A stretch of 8,059 bases of DNA, taken from a virus. Its lineage: Duplodnaviria > Heunggongvirae > Uroviricota > Caudoviricetes. The translations under genes were made by a program, and so were the position numbers. Below are positions 1 to 8,059 of the stretch, piece after piece. The notes beneath the pieces were generated by a model, which saw only the letters and a program-made list of their open reading frames with translations, did no database searches and was not told where the DNA came from. Each line of letters starts with the position of its first letter. The first letter of the stretch is position 1. Where the stretch lies: IMG/VR virus record IMGVR_UViG_2576861205_000005. One strand, 5' to 3'.

Positions 1-1
1 A

Positions 2-1816
2 TACAGCGTGTGGGGGCTGAAGCTGCCGACGCTGCGCCAGCGCCTGTTCCGCTGCGTGAGTATCCGTGAGAACGATGACGGCACGTATGCCATCACCGCC
101 GTGCAGCATGTACCGGAGAAAGAAGCCATCGTGGATAACGGGGCGCACTTTGACGGTGACCAGAGCGGCACGGTGAATGGTGTCACGCCGCCAGCAGTGC
201 AGCACCTGACCGCCGAAGTCACTGCAGACAGCGGGGAATATCAGGTGCTGGCGCGATGGGACACACCGAAGGTGGTGAAGGGCGTGAGCTTCCTGCTCCG
301 TCTGACCGTAACAGCGGACGACGGCAGTGAGCGACTGGTCAGCACGGCCCGGACGACGGAAACCACATACCGCTTCACGCAACTGGCGCTGGGGAACTAC
401 AGGCTGACAGTCCGGGCGGTAAATGCCCGGGGGCAGCAGGGCGATCCGGCGTCGGTATCGTTCCGGATTGCCGCACCGGCAGCACCGTCGAGGATTGAGC
501 TGACGCCGGGCTATTTTCAGATAACCGCCACGCCGCATCTTGCTGTTTATGACCCGACGGTACAGTTTGAGTTCTGGTTCTCGGAAAAGCGGATTACCGA
601 TATCAGGCAGGTTGAAACCACAGCCCGCTATCTTGGTACGGCGCTGTACTGGATAGCCGCCAGTATCAATATCAAACCGGGCCATGATTATTATTTTTAC
701 GTTCGCAGTGTGAACACCGTTGGCAAATCGGCATTCGTGGAGGCTGTCGGTCGGGCGAGCGATGATGCGGAAGGTTACCTGGATTTTTTCAAAGGAGAAA
801 TCGGGAAAACACATCTGGCCCAGGAGTTGTGGACGCAGATTGATAACGGTCAGCTTGCGCCGGACCTGGCTGAAATCAGGACGTCCATTACGAATGTCAG
901 CAATGAAATCACGCAGACCGTCAATAAAAAACTGGAAGACCAGAGCGCGGCAATCCAGCAGATACAGAAAGTTCAGGTTGATACAAATAATAACCTGAAC
1001 AGCATGTGGGCCGTGAAACTGCAGCAGATGAAGGACGGACGCCTTTATATTGCGGGTATCGGAGCCGGTATTGAGAATACGCCAGCAGGTATGCAGAGTC
1101 AGGTGCTTCTGGCTGCTGACCGGATTGCGATGATTAATCCTGCGAATGGCAACACAAAGCCGATGTTTGTTGGTCAGGGCGATCAGATATTCATGAACGA
1201 AGTGTTCCTGAAATACCTGACGGCTCCCACCATTACCAGCGGCGGTAATCCTCCGGCATTTTCCCTGACACCGGACGGGCGGCTGACGGCGAAAAATGCC
1301 GATATCAGCGGTAACGTGAATGCGAACTCCGGGACGCTCAATAATGTCACCATTAACAAGAACTGTGTCATCAGAGGGAAACTGTCTGCAAACCAGATTG
1401 AAGGCGATCTCGTTAAAACAGTGGGTAAGGCTTTCCCCCGGGACTCCCGTGCACCGGAACGGTGGCCATCAGGGACCATCACCGTCAGGGTTTATGACGA
1501 TCAGCCGTTTGACCGGCAGATTGTTATTCCGGCGGTGGCATTCAGCGGCGCTAAACATGAGCGGGAGAATAACGATATTTATTCGTCATGCCGCCTGATA
1601 GTACGGAAAAACGGTGCTGAAATTTATAACCGTACCGCGCTGGATAATACGCTGATTTACAGTGGTGTTATTGATATGCCAGCTGGTCGCGGCCACATGA
1701 CGCTGGAGTTTTCGGTGTCAGCATGGCTGGTGAATAACTGGTATCCCACAGCAAGTATCAGCGATTTGCTGGTTGTGGTGATGAAGAAAGCCACCGCAGG
1801 CATCAGTATCAGCTGA
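2..1816 (+). CDS. J: Tail tip / host specificity protein J, C-terminal portion (5'-partial; the frame is open from the first bases of the window)
   Basis: A 602-aa ORF, open to the window edge, lying immediately upstream of lom-stf-tfa. The translation has Ig/FN3-like repeat character (e.g. ...[10 protein letters not shown]...[22 protein letters not shown]...), as expected for lambda J family central and C-terminal domains. The track's start at 8 is only the first in-frame GTG; the real start is upstream of the window. Confidence 0.85.
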
Positions 1817-2509: not shown

Positions 2510-2537
2510 AGCCCGCCGGTTCAGGCGGGCTTTTTTG
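2510..2537 (+). terminator. Rho-independent terminator downstream of lom
   Basis: AGCCCGCC (2510-2517), loop GGTTCA, GGCGGGCT (2524-2531), then TTTTTT (2531-2536). Confidence 0.75.
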
Positions 2538-2547
2538 TGGAGTGGAT

Positions 2548-5526
2548 ATGGCAGCAGTAAAAATCTCAGGTGTGCTGAAAGATGGTGCGGGAAAACCAAT
2601 ACAGAACTGCACTATTCAACTGAAGGCAAAGCGTAACAGCACCACGGTACTGGTGAACACGGTGGCCTCTGAAAATCCGGATGAAGCCGGGCGTTACAGT
2701 ATGGACGTTGAGTATGGTCAGTACAGCGTCACCCTGCTGGTTGAAGGTTTTCCACCTTCACATGCCGGGACCATTACCGTCTATGAAGGTTCCAGACCAG
2801 GTACGCTGAATGATTTTCTCGGTGCCATGACGGAGGATGATGTCCGACCGGAGGCACTGCGCCGCTTTGAGCAGATGGTGGAAGAGGTGTCACGTAACGC
2901 CTCCGCGGTTGCACAGAATACGGCAGCCGCGAAAAAATCAGCCAGCGATGCCAGTGCATCAGCCAGCGAGGCGGCAACTCATGCAACCGATGCTGCAGCC
3001 TCAGCACGTGCCGCCAGCACGTCAGCCGGACAGGCCGCGTCGTCGGCTCAGTCAGCGTCTTCCAGCGCAGGAACGGCATCGACAAAGGCCCGTGAAGCAG
3101 CAAAAAGTGCTGCTGCTGCAGAGTCATCAAAAAGCGCGGCAGCTACCAGCGCCAGTGCCGCGAAAACGTCAGAAACGAATGCCGCAGCGTCACAACAATC
3201 AGCAGCCACTTCTGCATCCACCGCGACCACGAAAGCGTCAGAAGCAGCCACTTCAGCACGGGATGCGTCGGCTTCAAAAGAGGCGGCAAAATCATCAGAA
3301 ACGAACGCAGCCTCGAGCGCCAGCAGCGCAGCTTCCTCGGCAACGGCGGCAGCAAATTCTGCGAAGGCGGCAAAAACGTCCGAGACGAACGCCAGGTCTT
3401 CTGAAACGGCAGCGGGACAGAGCGCCTCAGCTGCGGCAGACTCAAAAACAGCGGCTGCATTATCTGCCAGTGCCGCGTCAACAAGTGCCGGGCAGGCCTC
3501 AGCCAGTGCCACCGCCGCCGGAAAATCGGCAGAAAGTGCTGCATCGTCTGCTTCAACAGCCACAACGAAGGCTGGCGAAGCCGCTGTACAGGCCAGCGCA
3601 GCAGCGAGGTCTGCTTCCGCAGCGAAGACATCCAAGACGAACGCGAAAGCGTCGGAAACCAGCGCAGAATCCTCAAAAACGGCTGCCGCATCGTCCGCCA
3701 GTTCGGCGGCGTCATCGGCATCATCTGCGTCTGCTTCAAAAGATGAGGCGACCAGACAGGCGTCAGCAGCAAAGGGCAGCGCCACGACGGCATCCACGAA
3801 GGCGACAGAGGCAGCTGGCAGTGCGACGGCGGCAGCTCAGAGCAAAAGTACGGCGGAATCCGCGGCAACGCGCGCTGAGACAGCGGCAAAACGGGCAGAG
3901 GATATTGCATCCGCCGTGGCGCTTGAGGATGCGAGCACGACGAAAAAGGGGATAGTACAGCTCAGCAGTGCGACTAACAGCACTTCCGAGTCACTGGCGG
4001 CAACGCCAAAAGCCGTTAAGGCCGCGTATGAGCTGGCTAACGGGAAATACACCGCACAGGATGCAACGACAGCACAGAAAGGGATAGTTCAGCTTAGCAA
4101 CGCGACCAACAGCACATCTGAAATGCTGGCGGCAACGCCAAAGTCGGTAAAGGCAGCCTATGACCTTGCTAACGGGAAATATACTGCTCAGGACGCTACG
4201 ACAGCACAAAAAGGAATTGTCCAGCTCAGTAGTGCAACCAACAGCGCATCTGAAACGCTTGCCGCGACACCGAAAGCAGTGAAAGCAGCTAATAATAATG
4301 CGAATGGTCGGGTACCTTCTGCCCGTAAGGTGAATGGTAAGGCGCTTTCAGCGGATATAACACTGACGCCGAAAGATATTGGTACGCTTAACTCAACAAC
4401 AATGTCATTCAGCGGTGGTGCTGGTTGGTTCAAATTAGCAACGGTAACCATGCCACAGGCGAGTTCTGTTGTTTCAATTACGTTGATTGGTGGTGCGGGA
4501 TTTAACGTGGGGTCACCTCAACAGGCAGGTATATCTGAACTTGTTTTGCGTGCAGGTAATGGTAATCCGAAGGGGATTACTGGTGCTTTATGGCAGCGCA
4601 CATCGACAGGGTTTACAAATTTTGCCTGGGTCAATACATCTGGTGATACTTACGATATTTACGTTGCAATCGGAAATTATGCGACTGGTGTAAATATTCA
4701 ATGGGATTATACCAGTAATGCCAGCGTGACGATTCATACGTCACCAGCATATTCTGCTAATAAGCCGGAAGGGTTAACGGACGGTACAGTTTATTCACTC
4801 TATACGCCATCAGAGCAGTTTTATCCGCCTGGCGCACCAATCCCGTGGCCATCAGATACCGTTCCGTCTGGCTATGCCCTGATGCAGGGGCAGACTTTTG
4901 ACAAATCTGCATACCCGAAACTTGCAGCCGCTTATCCGTCAGGCGTGATCCCTGATATGCGTGGCTGGACGATTAAGGGCAAACCCGCCAGTGGTCGTGC
5001 CGTATTGTCTCAGGAACAGGACGGCATTAAATCGCACACCCACAGCGCCAGCGCATCCAGTACGGATTTGGGGACGAAAAACACATCGTCGTTTGATTAC
5101 GGAACCAAATCCACGAATAACACCGGGGCGCATACGCACAGTCTGAGTGGCTCTACGGGGTCTGCCGGTGATCATACTCATGGTAATGGTATTCGTTGGC
5201 CAGGAGGCGGCGGTTCTGCGTTAGCATTTTATGATGGCGGTGGGTTCACTTATGTCCAGGATTCACAGTATCAAGTAAGCCCGGGGACTTCTTCCCGTAG
5301 ATCGTATTATCAACGTATTCAGACACAGTCAGCAGGTGCTCATACCCACTCGCTGTCTGGTACTGCAGCAAGTTCTGGCGCACATGCACATACTGTAGGT
5401 ATTGGTGCGCATACGCACTCCGTTGCGATTGGTTCACATGGACACACCATCACCGTTAACGCTGCTGGTAACGCGGAAAACACCGTCAAAAACATCGCAT
5501 TTAACTATATTGTGAGGCTTGCATAA
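2548..5526 (+). CDS. stf: Side tail fibre protein (lambda Stf family), long variant with expanded Ala/Ser-rich shaft, tandem 44-aa repeats and His-x-His-rich C-terminal tip
   Basis: The ORF track starts at GTG 2542. I prefer ATG 2548, which has GGAG 5 nt upstream and gives [27 protein letters not shown]..., matching my recollection of the lambda Stf N-terminus. C-terminus ...[31 protein letters not shown]. The stop overlaps the tfa start (TAATG). Confidence 0.9.
3943..4290 (+). repeat. In-frame tandem repeat inside stf: 2.7 copies of a 132-bp (44-aa) unit
   Basis: Units begin at 3946, 4078 and 4210 (period exactly 132 nt). Encoded peptide is KGIVQLS(S/N)ATNS(T/A)SE(S/M/T)LAATPK(A/S)VKAAY(E/D)[15 protein letters not shown]. 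Copies differ mostly at synonymous positions; the third copy is truncated. Confidence 0.9.
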
Positions 5527-6110
5527 TGGCATTCAGAATGAGTGAACAAGCACGGACCATAAAAATTTATAATCTGCTGGCCGGAACTAATGAATTTATT
5601 GGTGAAGGTGACGCATATATTCCGCCTCATACAGGTCTGCCAGCAAACAGTACCGATATTGCACCACCAGATATTCCTGCTGGCTTTGTGGCTGTTTTCA
5701 ACAGTGATGAGGCATCGTGGCATCTCGTTGAAGACCATCGGGGTAAAACGGTTTATGACGTAGCGTCAGGGGACGAGTTATTTATTTCTGAACTCGGTCC
5801 GTTACCGGAAAATGTTACCTGGTTATCGCCGGAAGGGGAGTTTCAGAAGTGGAACGGCACAGCCTGGGTGAAGGATACGGAAGCAGAAAAAATGTTCCGG
5901 ATCCGGGAGGCGGAAGAAACAAAAAACAACCTGATGCAGGTAGCCAGTGAGCATATTGCGCCGCTTCAGGATGCTGCAGATCTGGAAATTGCAACGGAGG
6001 AAGAAACCTCATTGCTGGAAGCCTGGAAAAAGTATCGGGTGTTGCTGAACCGTGTTGATACATCAACTGCACCTGATATTGAGTGGCCTACGAACCCTGT
6101 CAGGGAGTAA
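5526..6110 (+). CDS. tfa: Tail fibre assembly protein (lambda Tfa family)
   Basis: 194 aa, [44 protein letters not shown]..., the same length and near-identical start to lambda Tfa as I recall it. Start overlaps the stf stop. Confidence 0.9.
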
Positions 6111-6159
6111 TCATTGGGATTATGCCGCAGCACGTCTTAAGCGAGAACGTGCTGCGGTT
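5946..6159 (+). repeat. Direct repeat copy 1 (tfa 3' end plus downstream hairpin), left flank of the cargo gene
   Basis: agtgagcatattgcgccgcttcaggatgctgcagatctggaaattgcaacggaggaagaa...cctgtcagggagtaatcattgggattatgccgcag...gtgctgcggtt recurs at 6995-7209 with scattered substitutions. Confidence 0.9.
6125..6157. terminator. Perfect 11-bp stem / 11-nt loop hairpin between convergent tfa and methyltransferase genes; putative bidirectional terminator or recombination-associated structure
   Basis: CCGCAGCACGT (6125-6135), loop CTTAAGCGAGA, ACGTGCTGCGG (6147-6157). There is no T-run immediately after the stem, so the terminator role is uncertain. It lies inside the direct repeat. Confidence 0.45.
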
Positions 6160-6164
6160 GGATG

Positions 6165-6833
6165 CTATTTTTTCCCTGAAGCGGAAAACATTACTACAGT
6201 ACCTTGAACCTTGGTTTTAACATTCTCGAAATGCTCTGAGAGTATATGTGTTAAGCCTTCTTCGGAATCTTTTGTGTTTGAAAAGATGCCTTTCTGATTG
6301 TAAATGCGCATCAGTTTTTGACCGAAGCTATTGTGCACAACTCCATCGCCAAGAATTGTGGCTCCGTATAGAGTTCCATCGTCAGTTAAGGCCTGCGCCG
6401 CATTGCGTATTACACAGCTTTTTGTAGATATATTTCCAGGCAGGCAGTGAAGAAGGTAAAACATGGAAATGGAATCAAATTGACCATGTAACGCCGCGGG
6501 ATAAGGTTCAAAAACATCATGGCTAATTTTATGTTTAATTTTTGATTCCCCAGCCCTTGTAGATGCCGCGTTCAGGCTAGCTTCGTTCAAATCCATTAAA
6601 GATATCAGACTACTCTCAGGTACGTGAGTAAGGTAAAACCCAGTTCCAACACCAATATCCAGATGGTTGTTACCTACATGTTCCAGAAAGTGTGGAAGAA
6701 GGTGTTCCTTTGTAGGACATCCCCATGCAAGCCGATTTGATACTCCCAAAACCCACCAGTCATAAAGCTTTAGGGTAAGTGGTGTGTAAATTTTAGCCCC
6801 ATCATCTGTGTTTTTTTTCATTGATTTCACCAT
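6165..6833 (-). CDS. Class I (Rossmann-fold) SAM-dependent methyltransferase, small-molecule/RNA/protein type; prophage cargo (moron) gene
   Basis: 222 aa. Motif I HLDIGVGTGFY; acidic post-I residue in ISLMD; motif II-like FDSISMFYLLHCLP; motif III-like LTDDGTLYG. Upstream YDWW...RLAW spacing resembles UbiE/COQ5-type enzymes. No DPPY/NPPY or PCQ DNA-methyltransferase motifs. Opposite strand to all phage genes. Start is ambiguous: the first ATG (6831-6833) has no Shine-Dalgarno, whereas the in-frame ATG at 6819-6821 (Met5) has GGTG upstream. Confidence 0.75.
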   Translation of the reverse strand: MVKSMKKNTDDGAKIYTPLTLKLYDWWVLGVSNRLAWGCPTKEHLLPHFLEHVGNNHLDIGVGTGFYLTHVPESSLISLMDLNEASLNAASTRAGESKIKHKISHDVFEPYPAALHGQFDSISMFYLLHCLPGNISTKSCVIRNAAQALTDDGTLYGATILGDGVVHNSFGQKLMRIYNQKGIFSNTKDSEEGLTHILSEHFENVKTKVQGTVVMFSASGKK

Positions 6834-6889
6834 GTTATAGTTTTATTTGTGAATTAAATCAATTATGGCGATGAATTACAAGGGGTTAA
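6834..6889. promoter_or_regulatory. AT-rich divergent intergenic region; candidate promoter(s) for the methyltransferase (minus) and the tfa-C fragment ORF (plus)
   Basis: 56 bp of AT-rich sequence (ttatagttttatttgtgaattaaatcaattatgg...) between two divergent starts. No -35/-10 was confidently assigned. Confidence 0.3.
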
Positions 6890-7159
6890 ATGCTGCCGCA
6901 GCATAGCGATATTGAAATAGCCTGGTATGCTTCGATACAGCAGGAGCCGAATGGCTGGAAGACCGTCACCACACAGTTCTACATCCAGGAATTCAGTGAG
7001 TATATTGCGCCACTGCAGGATGCTGTAGATCTGGAAATCGCAACGGAGGAAGAAAGATCGTTGCTGGAGGCATGGAATAAATATCGGGTATTGTTGAATC
7101 GTGTTGATACATCAACTGCACCTGATATTGAGTGGCCTGCAAATCCTGTCAGGGAGTAA
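6890..7159 (+). pseudogene. Truncated/chimeric tail fibre assembly protein: novel 35-aa N-terminus fused to the conserved Tfa C-terminal ~54 aa
   Basis: [37 protein letters not shown] then [52 protein letters not shown], against tfa ...[58 protein letters not shown] ribosome-binding site 4 nt before the ATG. It may still be expressed. Confidence 0.6.
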
Positions 7160-7209
7160 TCATTGGGATTATGCCGCAGACACGTCGTATGCAGGAACGT
7201 GCTGCGGTT
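6995..7209 (+). repeat. Direct repeat copy 2 (tfa 3' end plus degenerate hairpin), right flank of the cargo gene
   Basis: Homologous to 5946-6159. The hairpin here carries a 1-nt bulge (CCGCAGACACGT ... ACGTGCTGCGG, 7174-7207). Confidence 0.9.
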
Positions 7210-7273
7210 AGTTTGTGAGCTTTCGATAGTGGTTGTTATTTTTGCCCTTATTTGTTCCGGAGGCCATGGTTCA

Positions 7274-7444
7274 ATGGTCCGTCTGCCCCCTGTGGTGATG
7301 TCAGCAAAATCAGCCACTGCGCGAACCACAATAGCCCGGGAAGATGCTGAAGATCACCAGGTAAAGCTATCAGCGCAGAAACTGGAAGAACTGCTCGCAT
7401 CAATGGTTAAGGATGAGGTTGATCGCAATGATGGGATTTATTGA
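7274..7444 (+). CDS. Hypothetical small protein (56 aa), prophage-end ORF of unknown function
   Basis: GGAGG at 7259-7263, 10 nt upstream of ATG 7274. Product MVRLPPVVMSAKSATARTTIAREDAEDHQVKLSAQKLEELLASMVKDEVDRNDGIY. The stop overlaps a 14-codon ORF (ATGA junction at ~7428-7444). The longer track ORF from 7163 begins inside the tfa repeat, so I do not take that start as real. No family recognised. Confidence 0.25.
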   Translation: MVRLPPVVMSAKSATARTTIAREDAEDHQVKLSAQKLEELLASMVKDEVDRNDGIY

Positions 7445-7559
7445 CGTCAGCGAGAGCAGAAGGAAGAACTGAATAACCTGAATGATTTACGCTCAATCAG
7501 AGCGATGATGATTGGCAGTAATTAGCGGTCAATTTCGGTTTTTTTGGCTGTGCGCTCCC

Positions 7560-7756
7560 CGCCCAGCATTGCGCGTCAATTAGCCCCAAAAAAACGAAAA
7601 AGTTACAATCAAGTAAAAAATTCCTTCTGCAAAACTAAAAAAGATTTCAATAAAATCAGACAGTTAAAAACATAAAAAAAAGGTACAAAAAAACATCTCA
7701 AAGTCTTGTTTTTTGCTTCAAATACAATTGGTTATTGTGTTTTTTGAAACCTACCA
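7560..7756. other. AT-rich non-coding tract at the prophage end; candidate attachment-site arm (attR-type P arm) abutting the host ompW fragment
   Basis: About 200 bp with long A/T runs (cccaaaaaaacgaaaaagttacaatcaagtaaaaaatt...cataaaaaaaaggtacaaaaaaacatc...) and no ORF of 60 aa or more on either strand, immediately before the ompW-like reading frame. Confidence 0.4.
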
Positions 7757-7873
7757 GTCTGGTACATGGATATTGATACCACTGCCAATTATAAACTGGG
7801 CGGAGCACAGCAACACGATAGCGTACGCCTCGATCCGTGGGTGTTTATGTTCTCAGCAGGATATCGTTTTTAA
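7757..7873 (+). pseudogene. ompW: Displaced 3' end fragment of outer membrane protein W gene (ompW/yciD), at the prophage-host junction
   Basis: Translation ...VWYMDIDTTANYKLGGAQQHDSVRLDPWVFMFSAGYRF* matches the OmpW C-terminal beta-strand as I recall it, including the terminal aromatic. An in-frame TGA lies just upstream (7742-7744) and the sequence before ~7757 is AT-rich and non-coding, so only the 3' portion is present. Exact breakpoint not determined. Confidence 0.65.
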
Positions 7874-7887
7874 TTCCGCACAAAAAT

Positions 7888-7907
7888 GACCCCGTAATTA
7901 CGGGGTC
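7888..7907. terminator. Bidirectional Rho-independent terminator between convergent ompW fragment and downstream minus-strand gene
   Basis: GACCCCGTAATTACGGGGTC perfect palindrome, with AAAAAT upstream and AATAAGG downstream. Confidence 0.8.
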
Positions 7908-7931
7908 AATAAGGACATGGTATAAAGGGTA

Positions 7932-8059
7932 TTATTTCTTCGCTTCTACGCCATCAGTTTCAGAGCGAATTAAGAATTTCTCAGTTGTTTGCGGAATATG
8001 CTGAATTAGCCAGTCGGCCATGTGCTTTTCATCATTTAAAATCGCTTCGATAATCGGAA
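7932..8059 (-). CDS. yciE: 3' end of a convergent host gene, probably the DUF892/ferritin-like protein YciE (5'-partial; continues beyond the window)
   Basis: Minus-strand frame open to the window edge, ending ...PIIEAILNDEKHMADWLIQHIPQTTEKFLIRSETDGVEAKK* (stop is the reverse complement of 7932-7934). Convergent with ompW, as in the E. coli ompW-yciE arrangement from memory. Name assignment is from recollection only. Confidence 0.5.
   Translation of the reverse strand, partial: PIIEAILNDEKHMADWLIQHIPQTTEKFLIRSETDGVEAKK

What the first reader, a model, noticed from the sequence alone, without database searches (positions are those of the whole stretch)
4290..5460. Mosaic receptor-binding half of stf: lower-GC central module and His-x-His-rich tip with a Gly-rich variable insert
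After the repeats the gene shifts composition: sampled 60-nt stretches are ~37-50% GC against more than 60% in the Ala-rich shaft. It encodes a segment ([27 protein letters not shown]...[33 protein letters not shown]...) that differs from the lambda Stf sequence I recall, then rejoins a conserved ...[10 protein letters not shown]...[59 protein letters not shown]... block. The tip carries HTHS/AHTHS/AHAHT/SHGHT repeats flanking a Gly-rich insert ([60 protein letters not shown]). This resembles the hypervariable segments between conserved His-rich strands that hold receptor specificity in T4 gp37-like fibres, so it suggests an exchanged specificity cassette with a distinct receptor.
Basis: partly seen in the sequence, partly recalled or inferred. 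Interest (0 to 1): 0.5.

Follow-up and report, generated by a model that had tools for sequence, protein, structure and literature searches.

The report
Mosaic prophage side tail fibre tip
The outer half of this E. coli prophage side-tail-fibre gene is a patchwork of separately exchanged modules ending in a T4-gp37-type histidine/iron needle whose receptor-touching tip has been swapped; this is real, but it is the ordinary, already described way these fibres evolve.

Summary
The window is the lambdoid J–lom–stf–tfa region of an E. coli prophage. The same stf allele is about 99% identical in many E. coli chromosomes.

After three 132-nt fibre repeats, stf has these parts:
- a linker plus a ~150-aa jelly-roll β-sandwich (nt 4300-4830), 14% identical to Ur-λ Stf but 85% to the Stf of the P1-like phage JL22
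- a collar and needle, 75-93% identical to λ Stf and to T4 gp37 (PDB 2XGF, E=6e-83), with all seven His-x-His motifs in register
- a 53-aa, 21%-Gly head (nt 5182-5340) between His-x-His motifs 3 and 4, where T4 carries its OmpC/LPS-contacting residues

Breakpoints are sharp at about 4295, 4830, 5130-5175 and 5330-5400. All combinations of sandwich and head occur. An O157:H7 prophage Stf is 100% identical in sandwich and collar but 21% in the head. Phage 204576 shows the reverse.

The two swapped modules have low GC3 (0.34 and 0.32, against 0.50-0.56 in the flanks). The shaft's >60% GC is an Ala/Ser/Thr codon effect (GC2 0.81, GC3 0.50).

The family and its variable specificity domain are already published. 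The receptor of this head is unknown. This is an ordinary, uncharacterised member of a known family.

The parts
2542..5526 (+). stf, the side tail fibre gene. It is 994 codons from GTG 2542. The probable real start is ATG 2548, preceded by GGAG at 2539-2542. The amino-acid numbers in this report count from 2542.
3926..4299 (+). Three tandem 132-nt (44-aa) Phage_fiber_2 repeats. The conserved end of the last repeat (…[11 protein letters not shown]) is the first exchange junction, at about 4290-4301.
   Evidence: The junction corresponds to the engineered λ Stf fusion point R393 (PMC11338833).
4300..4374 (+). Linker, aa 587-611 ([24 protein letters not shown]). JL22 similarity begins only after this linker, at about 4377.
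4375..4830 (+). Central module, aa 612-763: a globular jelly-roll-type β-sandwich with GC3 0.34. It is 14% identical to Ur-λ and 85% to the P1-like JL22 Stf over the whole central segment (aa 587-763). The sandwich itself (aa 612-763) is 100% identical to the O157:H7 EC4115 prophage Stf. No Pfam family covers it.
4831..5049 (+). Collar domain (PF07484), aa 764-836, including HxH 1 (5035-5043). A sharp junction lies at 4817-4831, at the motif [10 protein letters not shown].
5050..5181 (+). Ascending needle strand, aa 837-880, with the FDYGTK unit, HxH 2 (5131-5139) and HxH 3 (5173-5181). Similarity to fibres carrying other heads decays from about 5130.
5182..5340 (+). Head (distal tip) cassette, aa 881-933: 53 aa, 21% Gly, 8 aromatic residues, GC3 0.32. 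It takes the place of T4 gp37 residues 932-965. It is 15-26% identical to the heads of λ, T4, O157, JL22 and PhiR26_1, and 96% to the head of phage 204576.
5341..5523 (+). Descending needle strand, aa 934-994, with HxH 4-7 (5341-5349, 5383-5391, 5410-5418, 5437-5445) and the invariant C-terminus [16 protein letters not shown].
5526..6110 (+). tfa, the tail fibre assembly chaperone gene (Caudo_TAP). Its start overlaps the stf stop (TAATG at 5524-5528). The protein is 88-97% identical to Tfa of fibres that carry other heads.

Best explanation
Nucleotides 4290-5526 encode the distal, host-recognising half of a lambdoid prophage side tail fibre. This half was assembled by homologous recombination at short conserved junction sequences. 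After the Phage_fiber_2 repeats come a linker and a globular jelly-roll β-sandwich 'knob'. Next is a collar. Last is a T4-gp37-type needle, in which each chain runs out along the needle, forms the head at the far end, and runs back. By homology to T4, the seven His-x-His motifs per chain (three outbound, four returning) would coordinate seven metal ions on the trimer axis. The 53-residue Gly- and aromatic-rich head between motifs 3 and 4 would be the surface that touches the bacterial receptor. The conserved downstream Tfa would fold the conserved needle whichever head it carries.

The sandwich and the head are two separately exchangeable cassettes. Recombination in the conserved flanks (repeat end, collar start, His-box strands) re-assorts them among lambdoid, P1-like and T-even fibres and so changes host range.

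Shown here: the module boundaries, the homology, the re-assortment and the composition. Inferred from homology and the literature: trimer and iron binding, the head as receptor-binding site, and the chaperone role. Unknown: the receptor.
For: - **Context.** The gene order is J–lom–stf–tfa, with phage_tail_N, Collar and Caudo_TAP domains. The same allele is 99.2% identical in many E. coli chromosomes, and matches covering ≥80% of the gene occur in 1271 of 5426 genomes.
- **Homology to the solved gp37 tip.** E=6e-83. Identity is 84% in the collar, 77% and 75% in the two needle strands, and 15% in the head. The seven HxH motifs match T4's at 883, 915, 929 | 966, 980, 989, 998.
- **T4's receptor contacts lie in the replaced segment.** These are I933, N937, G938, G940, G942, G943, K945, S947, Y949, I951 and Y953. 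T4's tip is also Gly-rich (PMC6957217; 21% Gly in both heads).
- **Re-assortment.** The O157 EC4115 Stf is 100% identical in the sandwich and collar but 21% in the head. Phage 204576 is 29% in the central segment but 96% in the head. JL22 is 85% in the central segment and 19% in the head. λ matches neither.
- **Sharp boundaries.** In 30-nt windows, identity jumps from about 40% to 97-100% at 4830/4831. It changes at about 4295, and it decays and recovers at about 5130-5175 and 5330-5400.
- **Many alternative heads.** At least 15 unrelated head cassettes of 38-59 aa occupy the same site in database relatives.
- **Composition.** Both cassettes have low GC3 (0.34 and 0.32, against 0.50-0.56).
- **Chaperone.** Tfa is 88-97% identical regardless of the head.
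- **Published precedent.** The family, with conserved flanks (T4 812-931 and 966-1026) and a variable specificity domain (932-965), is described in PMC9659904. Engineered λ Stf chimeras are fused at R393 and S528, close to the natural junctions (PMC11338833).
Against: - Nothing here tests binding, trimerisation, metal content or expression.
- The AF2 monomer model of aa 747-994 was unusable (pLDDT 46.6), so the fold of this head is unknown.
- The tools gave no residue-level alignment for the sandwich's structural matches, so its role is open.
- The prophage end shows decay (tfa remnants downstream), so the fibre may no longer be used by a viable phage.
- Low GC3 could reflect constraints other than foreign origin.
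Confidence: 0.85

Rival explanations
1. The central jelly-roll sandwich (aa 612-763) is itself a lectin-like receptor-binding site, for example for O-antigen, capsule or the LPS core. The fibre would then have two specificity determinants, and the central module rather than the head would be the main host-range cassette.
For: - Foldseek finds the fold in EPS depolymerases and tail fibres of many phages (63 hits at E≤1e-3).
- It is exchanged independently and has foreign-looking GC3.
- It occurs joined to several different tip types.
Against: - It lies proximal to the collar and needle, tens of nanometres from the tip. In T4 and λ the tip makes the contact.
- Its core is highly conserved from E. 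coli to Salmonella and Pseudomonas, unlike a typical specificity surface.
- β-sandwich knobs in fibres are often purely structural.
- No ligand-site residues could be identified.
Confidence: 0.25
2. The compositional shift is only a by-product of amino-acid content and says nothing about exchange.
For: The shaft's 61% GC comes from GC2 of 0.81. Its GC3 is 0.50, the same as the N-terminus (p=0.61).
Against: GC3 still drops to 0.34 in the sandwich and 0.32 in the head, against 0.52-0.56 in the adjacent segments (p=4e-4 to 6e-3). Those are exactly the two segments that comparative mapping had independently marked as exchanged.
Confidence: 0.08
3. The head differs because of rapid in-place point-mutation divergence under diversifying selection, not because of cassette replacement.
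For: Tips of receptor-binding proteins are classic targets of positive selection. Similarity decays gradually over about 40 nt at each edge.
Against: - Heads differ in length (34-53 aa between the motifs) and cannot be aligned (z 0-2.9).
- The same head is 96-100% identical in fibres with a different central module.
- A search of 1.84 billion representatives found only copies 94-100% identical and no intermediates.
- The O157 allele is 97-100% identical on both sides of a 21%-identical head.
Confidence: 0.04
4. The gene is a relic in a decaying cryptic prophage and no functional fibre is made, so the mosaic is history rather than current function.
For: The prophage end carries a tfa fragment, a DUF4376 pseudogene and a disrupted ompW. 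Lab λ itself carries a frameshifted stf.
Against: The 994-codon frame is intact, is translationally coupled to an intact tfa, and is conserved at ≥99% in 33 records and 95-99% in 1191 records. J and lom upstream are intact within the window.
Confidence: 0.15

Closest known systems
Ur-λ side tail fibre Stf (P03764; orf-401 + orf-314 of λ PaPa) with Tfa
   Same: Same locus (J–lom–stf–tfa). The N-terminal tail-attachment domain is 82% identical, the collar 93%, the needle strands 86% and 90%, and Tfa 94%. Same overall plan: Ala-rich coiled shaft, fibre repeat, distal gp37-like needle (PMC12617516).
   Different: λ has one fibre repeat, not three. Its central segment is unrelated (14%). It has eight HxH motifs instead of seven, and a 45-aa head that is 26% identical. 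λ's receptor is OmpC. The receptor of this fibre is unknown.
T4 long tail fibre gp37 receptor-binding tip (PDB 2XGF, residues 785-1026)
   Same: E=6e-83. Collar, needle and all seven iron-binding HxH motifs are in register. The C-terminus is identical ([11 protein letters not shown]). The Gly-rich head lies between motifs 3 and 4.
   Different: The head is 53 aa, against 34 aa in T4, and is 15% identical. Everything upstream of the collar is unrelated. The chaperone is of the λ Tfa type rather than the T4 gp38 subgroup (PMC9659904).
'T4- and λ-based RBP family' (ΦNP ORF6 and more than 200 phages; Magaziner & Salmond 2022, PMC9659904)
   Same: The published definition fits exactly: about 215 conserved distal residues, with divergence confined to the position of T4 932-965, and a tfa/gp38-like gene immediately downstream.
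   Different: This head cassette is not among the members named in the sections of that paper that were read. Only 2 of 50,697 phage records carry it. Known receptors in the family are OmpC (λ, T4) and LPS Glc-II (ΦNP). A λ-like Stf, that of Gifsy-1, binds LPS core Gal II. Its tip type was not checked here.
O157:H7 EC4115 prophage Stf (WP_000279120.1)
   Same: Repeats 99%, sandwich 100%, collar 100%, descending needle strand 97%.
   Different: The head is 21% identical and shorter. This is a natural head-swap partner.
Stf of the P1-like phage JL22 (UOL50985.1)
   Same: The central segment (aa 587-763) is 85% identical in protein, with 92% DNA identity from nt 4377. The collar is 99%.
   Different: The N-terminus and shaft are unrelated (18-22%), the head is 19%, and the virion is a myovirus. 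This shows that the module crosses phage families.
C-terminal jelly-roll β-sandwich of Pantoea stewartii WceF (PDB 6TGF) and of phage tailspikes and EPS depolymerases
   Different: Only 12% sequence identity. In WceF the domain follows a catalytic β-helix. Here it sits between fibre repeats and a collar. Which WceF residues align was not reported by the tool.

Membership tests
gp37/λ-Stf-type needle receptor-binding tip (T4- and λ-based RBP family) | Significant sequence homology across the ~215-240 distal residues to the solved gp37 tip | tested here: met
   phmmer against PDB 2XGF gave E=6.1e-83, aligning aa 747-994 to chain residues 15-242. Segment identities are 84%, 77% and 75%.
gp37/λ-Stf-type needle receptor-binding tip (T4- and λ-based RBP family) | Collar domain (PF07484) immediately before the needle | tested here: met
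   Pfam Collar covers aa 764-811, E=6.5e-12, 45.7 bits against a cut-off of 24.
gp37/λ-Stf-type needle receptor-binding tip (T4- and λ-based RBP family) | His-x-His motifs on both needle strands, in register with T4's seven iron sites | tested here: met
   Seven HxH motifs at aa 832, 864, 878 | 934, 948, 957, 966 align with T4 883, 915, 929 | 966, 980, 989, 998.
gp37/λ-Stf-type needle receptor-binding tip (T4- and λ-based RBP family) | Divergence confined to the head segment (T4 932-965) between conserved flanks | tested here: met
   The head is 15-26% identical while the flanks are 75-100% identical, against five comparators. At least 15 alternative cassettes occupy this site.
gp37/λ-Stf-type needle receptor-binding tip (T4- and λ-based RBP family) | Tail fibre assembly chaperone gene directly downstream | tested here: met
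   tfa at 5526-6110 matches Caudo_TAP at E=1.3e-44, and its start overlaps the stf stop.
gp37/λ-Stf-type needle receptor-binding tip (T4- and λ-based RBP family) | Homotrimer with metal ions on the axis and the head at the distal apex | tested here: inconclusive
   Only a monomer prediction was possible, and it failed (pLDDT 46.6). This needs a trimer prediction or an experiment.
gp37/λ-Stf-type needle receptor-binding tip (T4- and λ-based RBP family) | The head mediates receptor binding | not testable with these tools
   Inferred from T4 mutagenesis (PMC6957217) and from ΦNP and λ.
Lambdoid side tail fibre (Stf) | N-terminal tail-attachment domain (PF08400) and an Ala-rich coiled shaft | tested here: met
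   phage_tail_N covers aa 5-137 at E=4.6e-69. This domain is 82% identical to λ. The shaft is 39% Ala.
Lambdoid side tail fibre (Stf) | Gene order J–lom–stf–tfa in a lambdoid prophage | tested here: met
Mu/P1-type invertible tail-fibre segment (considered) | Inverted repeats flanking alternative fibre-tip/tfa sets, plus an invertase | tested here: not met
   No inverted repeats of ≥24 nt occur in 3800-8059. The tfa remnant is in direct orientation, and no invertase ORF is present in the window.
T2/K3-type gp38 adhesin (Gly-rich motifs flanking hypervariable segments; considered) | A separate adhesin protein bound at the fibre tip, with specificity carried by gp38 rather than by the fibre | tested here: not met
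   The downstream gene is a λ-type Caudo_TAP chaperone, 94% identical to λ Tfa. The Gly-rich variable segment lies within the fibre itself.

The most novel reading that the evidence does not exclude
This fibre carries two independent recognition modules. One is an unusually large (53-aa) Gly- and aromatic-rich head. It has no diverged relatives anywhere in 1.84 billion representative proteins, it folds differently from the T4 and λ heads, and it binds a receptor other than OmpC. The other is a lectin-like jelly-roll sandwich, not covered by Pfam, that binds a surface glycan. Re-assortment of the two cassettes would then generate combinatorial host ranges.
Probability: 0.15. Interest if true: 0.45.

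Novelty: new member of a known kind. Interest (0 to 1): 0.2.

Why it matters
The result is mainly a tidy worked example. It gives nucleotide-level junctions (about 4295, 4830, 5130-5175 and 5330-5400) at which nature swaps Stf modules. It also supplies natural near-isogenic pairs for mapping specificity: the window allele against the O157 allele differs essentially only in the head, and the window allele against phage 204576 differs in the central module. That is useful for people who engineer λ-based delivery particles, who already fuse at λ Stf R393 and S528. It also flags a widespread fibre β-sandwich domain that has no Pfam model. It does not change how tail-fibre evolution is understood.

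Tried and rejected
- **AF2 monomer model of the collar–needle–head (aa 747-994) with a 21-sequence alignment.** Mean pLDDT was 46.6 and pTM 0.17. It was unusable, so no fold search was run on it. An intertwined trimer cannot be modelled as a monomer.
- **Pfam scan of the central module at E≤1.** No family matched. PHROGs gives only unnamed or 'tail fiber' families.
- **Head cassette alone against 1.84 billion representatives.** Only near-identical copies were found. Several 'representatives' are chimeric ORFs that begin with unrelated N-terminal sequence unlike any part of Stf. I did not use their lengths as evidence for different fibre architectures.
- **tblastn of the head against 50,697 phage records.** Only two prophage-derived records matched.
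- **Literature search for 'His boxes'** (the term I recall from Tétart and co-workers for recombination at conserved gp37 motifs). It is not in the searchable library, so that link rests on my own knowledge.
- **Invertible-segment hypothesis.** Rejected: no inverted repeats and no invertase.
- **gp38-adhesin-type reading of 'Gly-rich motifs flanking hypervariable segments'.** Rejected: the variable segment is inside the fibre, and the downstream gene is a λ-type chaperone.
- **Rfam scan.** Nothing lies in 4290-5460 on either strand. The short ORFs overlapping the region in other frames have no support.
Full report
**What the window is.** The window holds, on the + strand:
- the 3' end of gene J (8-1816)
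- lom (1884-2483; Ail_Lom, E=2e-126)
- a 994-codon ORF (2542-5526)
- tfa (5526-6110; Caudo_TAP, E=1e-44)

Downstream lie a SAM-methyltransferase gene on the − strand (6165-6833) and a C-terminal tfa fragment (6890-7159). The large ORF carries Pfam phage_tail_N (aa 5-137), three Phage_fiber_2 repeats, Collar (aa 764-811) and Phage_fiber. It is therefore a lambdoid side tail fibre gene, stf.

A megablast of stf finds it in 5049 of 5426 complete E. coli genomes in some form. Matches covering ≥80% of the gene occur in 1271 genomes, and many chromosomes are 99.2% identical across the whole gene. In strain HS13-1 the prophage sits next to an ompW remnant, yciE and trpA. The likely start codon is ATG 2548, behind GGAG and the lom terminator. 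Residue numbers below count from the ORF-lister's GTG 2542, which is +2 relative to that start.

**Checking the compositional claim.** Windows of 200 nt give 0.59-0.64 across 2900-3900 and 0.415-0.505 across 4200-4900. Splitting GC by codon position changes what they mean:
- The shaft (aa 138-455; 39% Ala, 25% Ser, 12% Thr) has GC2 of 0.81 but GC3 of only 0.50. That GC3 is indistinguishable from the N-terminal domain (0.53, p=0.61). The '>60%' is thus an amino-acid effect.
- A true dip at synonymous sites exists in two places. The sandwich module (nt 4375-4830) has GC3 0.34 and the head (nt 5182-5340) has GC3 0.32.
- The neighbouring segments are higher: repeats 0.52, collar 0.56, ascending needle strand 0.55.
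- Fisher tests: central against upstream p=4e-4, central against collar p=9e-4, head against collar p=6e-3.

These two low-GC3 segments are exactly the two that the comparative mapping below identifies as exchanged.

**Mapping the mosaic.** I rebuilt Ur-λ Stf (774 aa) from λ orf-401 and orf-314. I then compared the window Stf segment by segment with six fibres. The 'central' column is the whole segment aa 587-763. One search split it into linker (aa 587-611) and sandwich (aa 612-763), which is why the O157 cell shows both values.

| Comparator | N-term | Shaft | Repeats | Central (aa 587-763) | Collar | Needle (out / back) | Head |
|---|---|---|---|---|---|---|---|
| Ur-λ | 82% | 55% | 34% | 14% | 93% | 86% / 90% | 26% |
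| P1-like phage JL22 | 18% | 22% | 18% | 85% | 99% | 61% / 72% | 19% |
| Phage 204576 | 91% | 95% | 44% | 29% | 99% | 95% / 100% | 96% |
| PhiR26_1 | 91% | 94% | 67% | 23% | 100% | 89% / 95% | 19% |
| O157:H7 EC4115 prophage | 91% | 94% | 99% | linker 96%, sandwich 100% | 100% | 86% / 97% | 21% |
| T4 gp37 799-1026 | not present | not present | not present | 3% (17 aa aligned) | 84% | 77% / 75% | 15% |

All four combinations exist: sandwich with or without this module, and head with or without this cassette. The two cassettes therefore assort independently.

At the DNA level the boundaries are sharp:
- Identity in 30-nt windows jumps from about 40% to 97-100% at 4830/4831 against 204576, PhiR26_1 and λ.
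- It falls at about 4290-4301 against PhiR26_1.
- It begins at about 4377 against JL22.
- Around the head it decays over 5130-5175 and recovers over 5330-5400.

The junctions lie in conserved sequence: the end of the last fibre repeat ([11 protein letters not shown]), the start of the collar ([10 protein letters not shown]), and the His-box strands. Engineers fuse λ Stf chimeras at R393 (just after λ's single repeat) and at S528 (just before the collar) (PMC11338833). Those are in effect the same joints.

**The tip.** The last 248 residues align to the crystal structure sequence of the T4 gp37 receptor-binding tip (2XGF) at E=6e-83.
- Seven His-x-His motifs (aa 832, 864, 878 | 934, 948, 957, 966) are in register with T4's seven (883, 915, 929 | 966, 980, 989, 998). 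In T4 these coordinate seven iron ions along the needle (PMC6957217).
It has 53 residues here, 34 in T4 and 45 in λ.
- In T4 this segment (932-965) is the ball-shaped head. It contains every residue shown by mutagenesis to contact LPS or OmpC, and it is noted there to be unusually Gly-rich. Both heads are 21% Gly, against 7.6% for the whole Stf.
- Among database relatives, at least 15 unrelated cassettes of 38-59 aa (counting the bounding HxH motifs) occupy this site. This one is the longest intact one.

This cassette is common in E. coli chromosomes: 720 of 5426 genomes carry it at 95-100% identity. It is rare in phage records, with 2 of 50,697. It has no diverged relatives among 1.84 billion representative proteins, where only copies 94-100% identical were found. 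Tfa is 88-97% identical whichever head the fibre carries. This fits a chaperone that acts on the conserved needle, as proposed for this family (PMC9659904).

**The central module.** No Pfam model matches aa 583-770 even at E≤1. PHROGs matches only unnamed or 'tail fiber' families.
- Relatives occur in E. coli, Salmonella (45-60% identity) and one Pseudomonas protein (40%). They share a strongly conserved core (MPQ…GG.G.N.G…[20 protein letters not shown]…[10 protein letters not shown]).
- In those relatives the module is joined to different upstream and downstream modules, including collar/gp37-type needles and Gp34_trimer- or gp37_trimer-type ends.
- An AF2 model (pLDDT 72 overall, about 85-90 in the core) is an all-β sandwich of about ten strands.
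- Foldseek against viral models finds the fold in 63 fibres, spikes and EPS depolymerases at E≤1e-3.

I read it as a shuffled globular 'knob'. A lectin-like secondary binding role is possible but unsupported, because the module sits proximal to the needle and its core is conserved.

**How it most likely works.**
- Shown: the module map, the homology, the independent assortment, the composition and the conserved chaperone.
- Inferred from T4, λ and ΦNP: three chains form a fibre whose distal needle is clamped by axial metal ions bound to the HxH motifs. The head at the apex makes the reversible first contact with the cell. Tfa folds the needle. Recombination in the conserved flanks swaps the head, and separately the sandwich, among lambdoid, P1-like and T-even phages.
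- Unknown: the receptor.

Reported receptors for related fibres are OmpC (λ, T4), LPS Glc-II (ΦNP) and LPS core Gal II (Gifsy-1 Stf). A new head makes a different receptor or OmpC allele plausible. However, the λ and T4 heads are themselves unrelated (z≈0) and both use OmpC, so sequence difference alone does not prove a different receptor.

**Comparison with what is known, and verdict.** This is a member of the published 'T4- and λ-based RBP family'. That family has conserved flanks, a variable specificity domain at T4 932-965, and a downstream tfa/gp38-like gene (PMC9659904). Every sequence-level defining feature was tested and met.

Two alternatives were tested and not met:
- A Mu/P1-type invertible segment: no inverted repeats of ≥24 nt and no invertase.
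- A T2-type gp38 adhesin arrangement.

Horizontal exchange of tail-fibre modules between unrelated phages, and recombination at conserved His-containing motifs in gp37, are long established. I recall this from Haggård-Ljungquist 1992, Hendrix & Duda 1992 and Tétart 1998. I could not retrieve those papers here.

- There is a single head domain, not several hypervariable segments.
- The GC contrast with the shaft is mostly an amino-acid effect.
- The claim of a distinct receptor is untested.

The finding is an uncharacterised but ordinary member of a known family, so interest is low.

Noticed in passing
window 5934-6159 and 6983-7209 (flanking 6165-6833): The minus-strand SAM-methyltransferase gene lies between two direct copies (86-89% identical) of the 3' end of tfa. 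The second copy belongs to an 89-aa C-terminal Caudo_TAP fragment (6890-7159). This looks like a cargo cassette inserted by recombination within tfa. PhiR26_1 has the same arrangement, where the gene is annotated YbcY-like.
   Followed up: partly
window 5869-6067 (+): A full-length Rfam hit to IS009 (RF02111; 223.8 bits against a gathering score of 117) lies entirely inside the tfa coding sequence. The 'sRNA' family therefore appears to be modelled on prophage tfa sequence.
   Followed up: no
window 1003-1816 (J C-terminus): λ J matches window 1-833 at 95% and 1003-1353 at only 77%, and does not match 1354-1816 at all. The receptor-binding end of the central fibre J is therefore also non-λ and may not use LamB.
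   Followed up: no
window 2510-2550 and 5524-5528: A lom terminator hairpin with a T-run lies at 2510-2537. The stf start is probably ATG 2548, with GGAG at 2539-2542, rather than GTG 2542. The stf stop and the tfa start overlap as TAATG, which suggests translational coupling.
   Followed up: partly
window 2542-2952 (Stf aa 1-137): The N-terminal tail-attachment domain is only 91% identical to that of alleles (such as HS13-1) that are 100% identical over aa 138-994. This suggests another exchange boundary near aa 137.
   Followed up: no
alignment A2 (relatives of aa 747-994): Six relatives with an extra FDYGTK unit on the outbound needle strand also carry an extra GIGAHxH unit on the returning strand. 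Needle length therefore seems to change in paired modules. λ Stf has eight HxH motifs, against seven here and in T4.
   Followed up: no
window 2837-3955 (+), 3048-3797 (−), 3143-3910 (−): Long ORFs of 249-372 aa lie in other frames and on the opposite strand across the Ala-rich shaft. They are artefacts of GCN-rich sequence. λ's annotated antisense 'orf206b' lies at the equivalent place.
   Followed up: no
window 7500-7800: GC falls to 0.29-0.36 near the end of the window, beyond the tfa remnant. In HS13-1 this corresponds to pseudogene fragments (DUF4376, ompW) at the prophage-chromosome junction.
   Followed up: no
database proteins P0037, P0189, P0237, P0240, P0242: Several database 'proteins' that carry this tip are chimeras. 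Some begin with unrelated N-terminal sequence fused to the Stf C-terminus, and P0037 is an in-frame N-terminus-to-tip deletion. They are probably assembly or gene-calling artefacts across repeated prophage sequence.
   Followed up: partly
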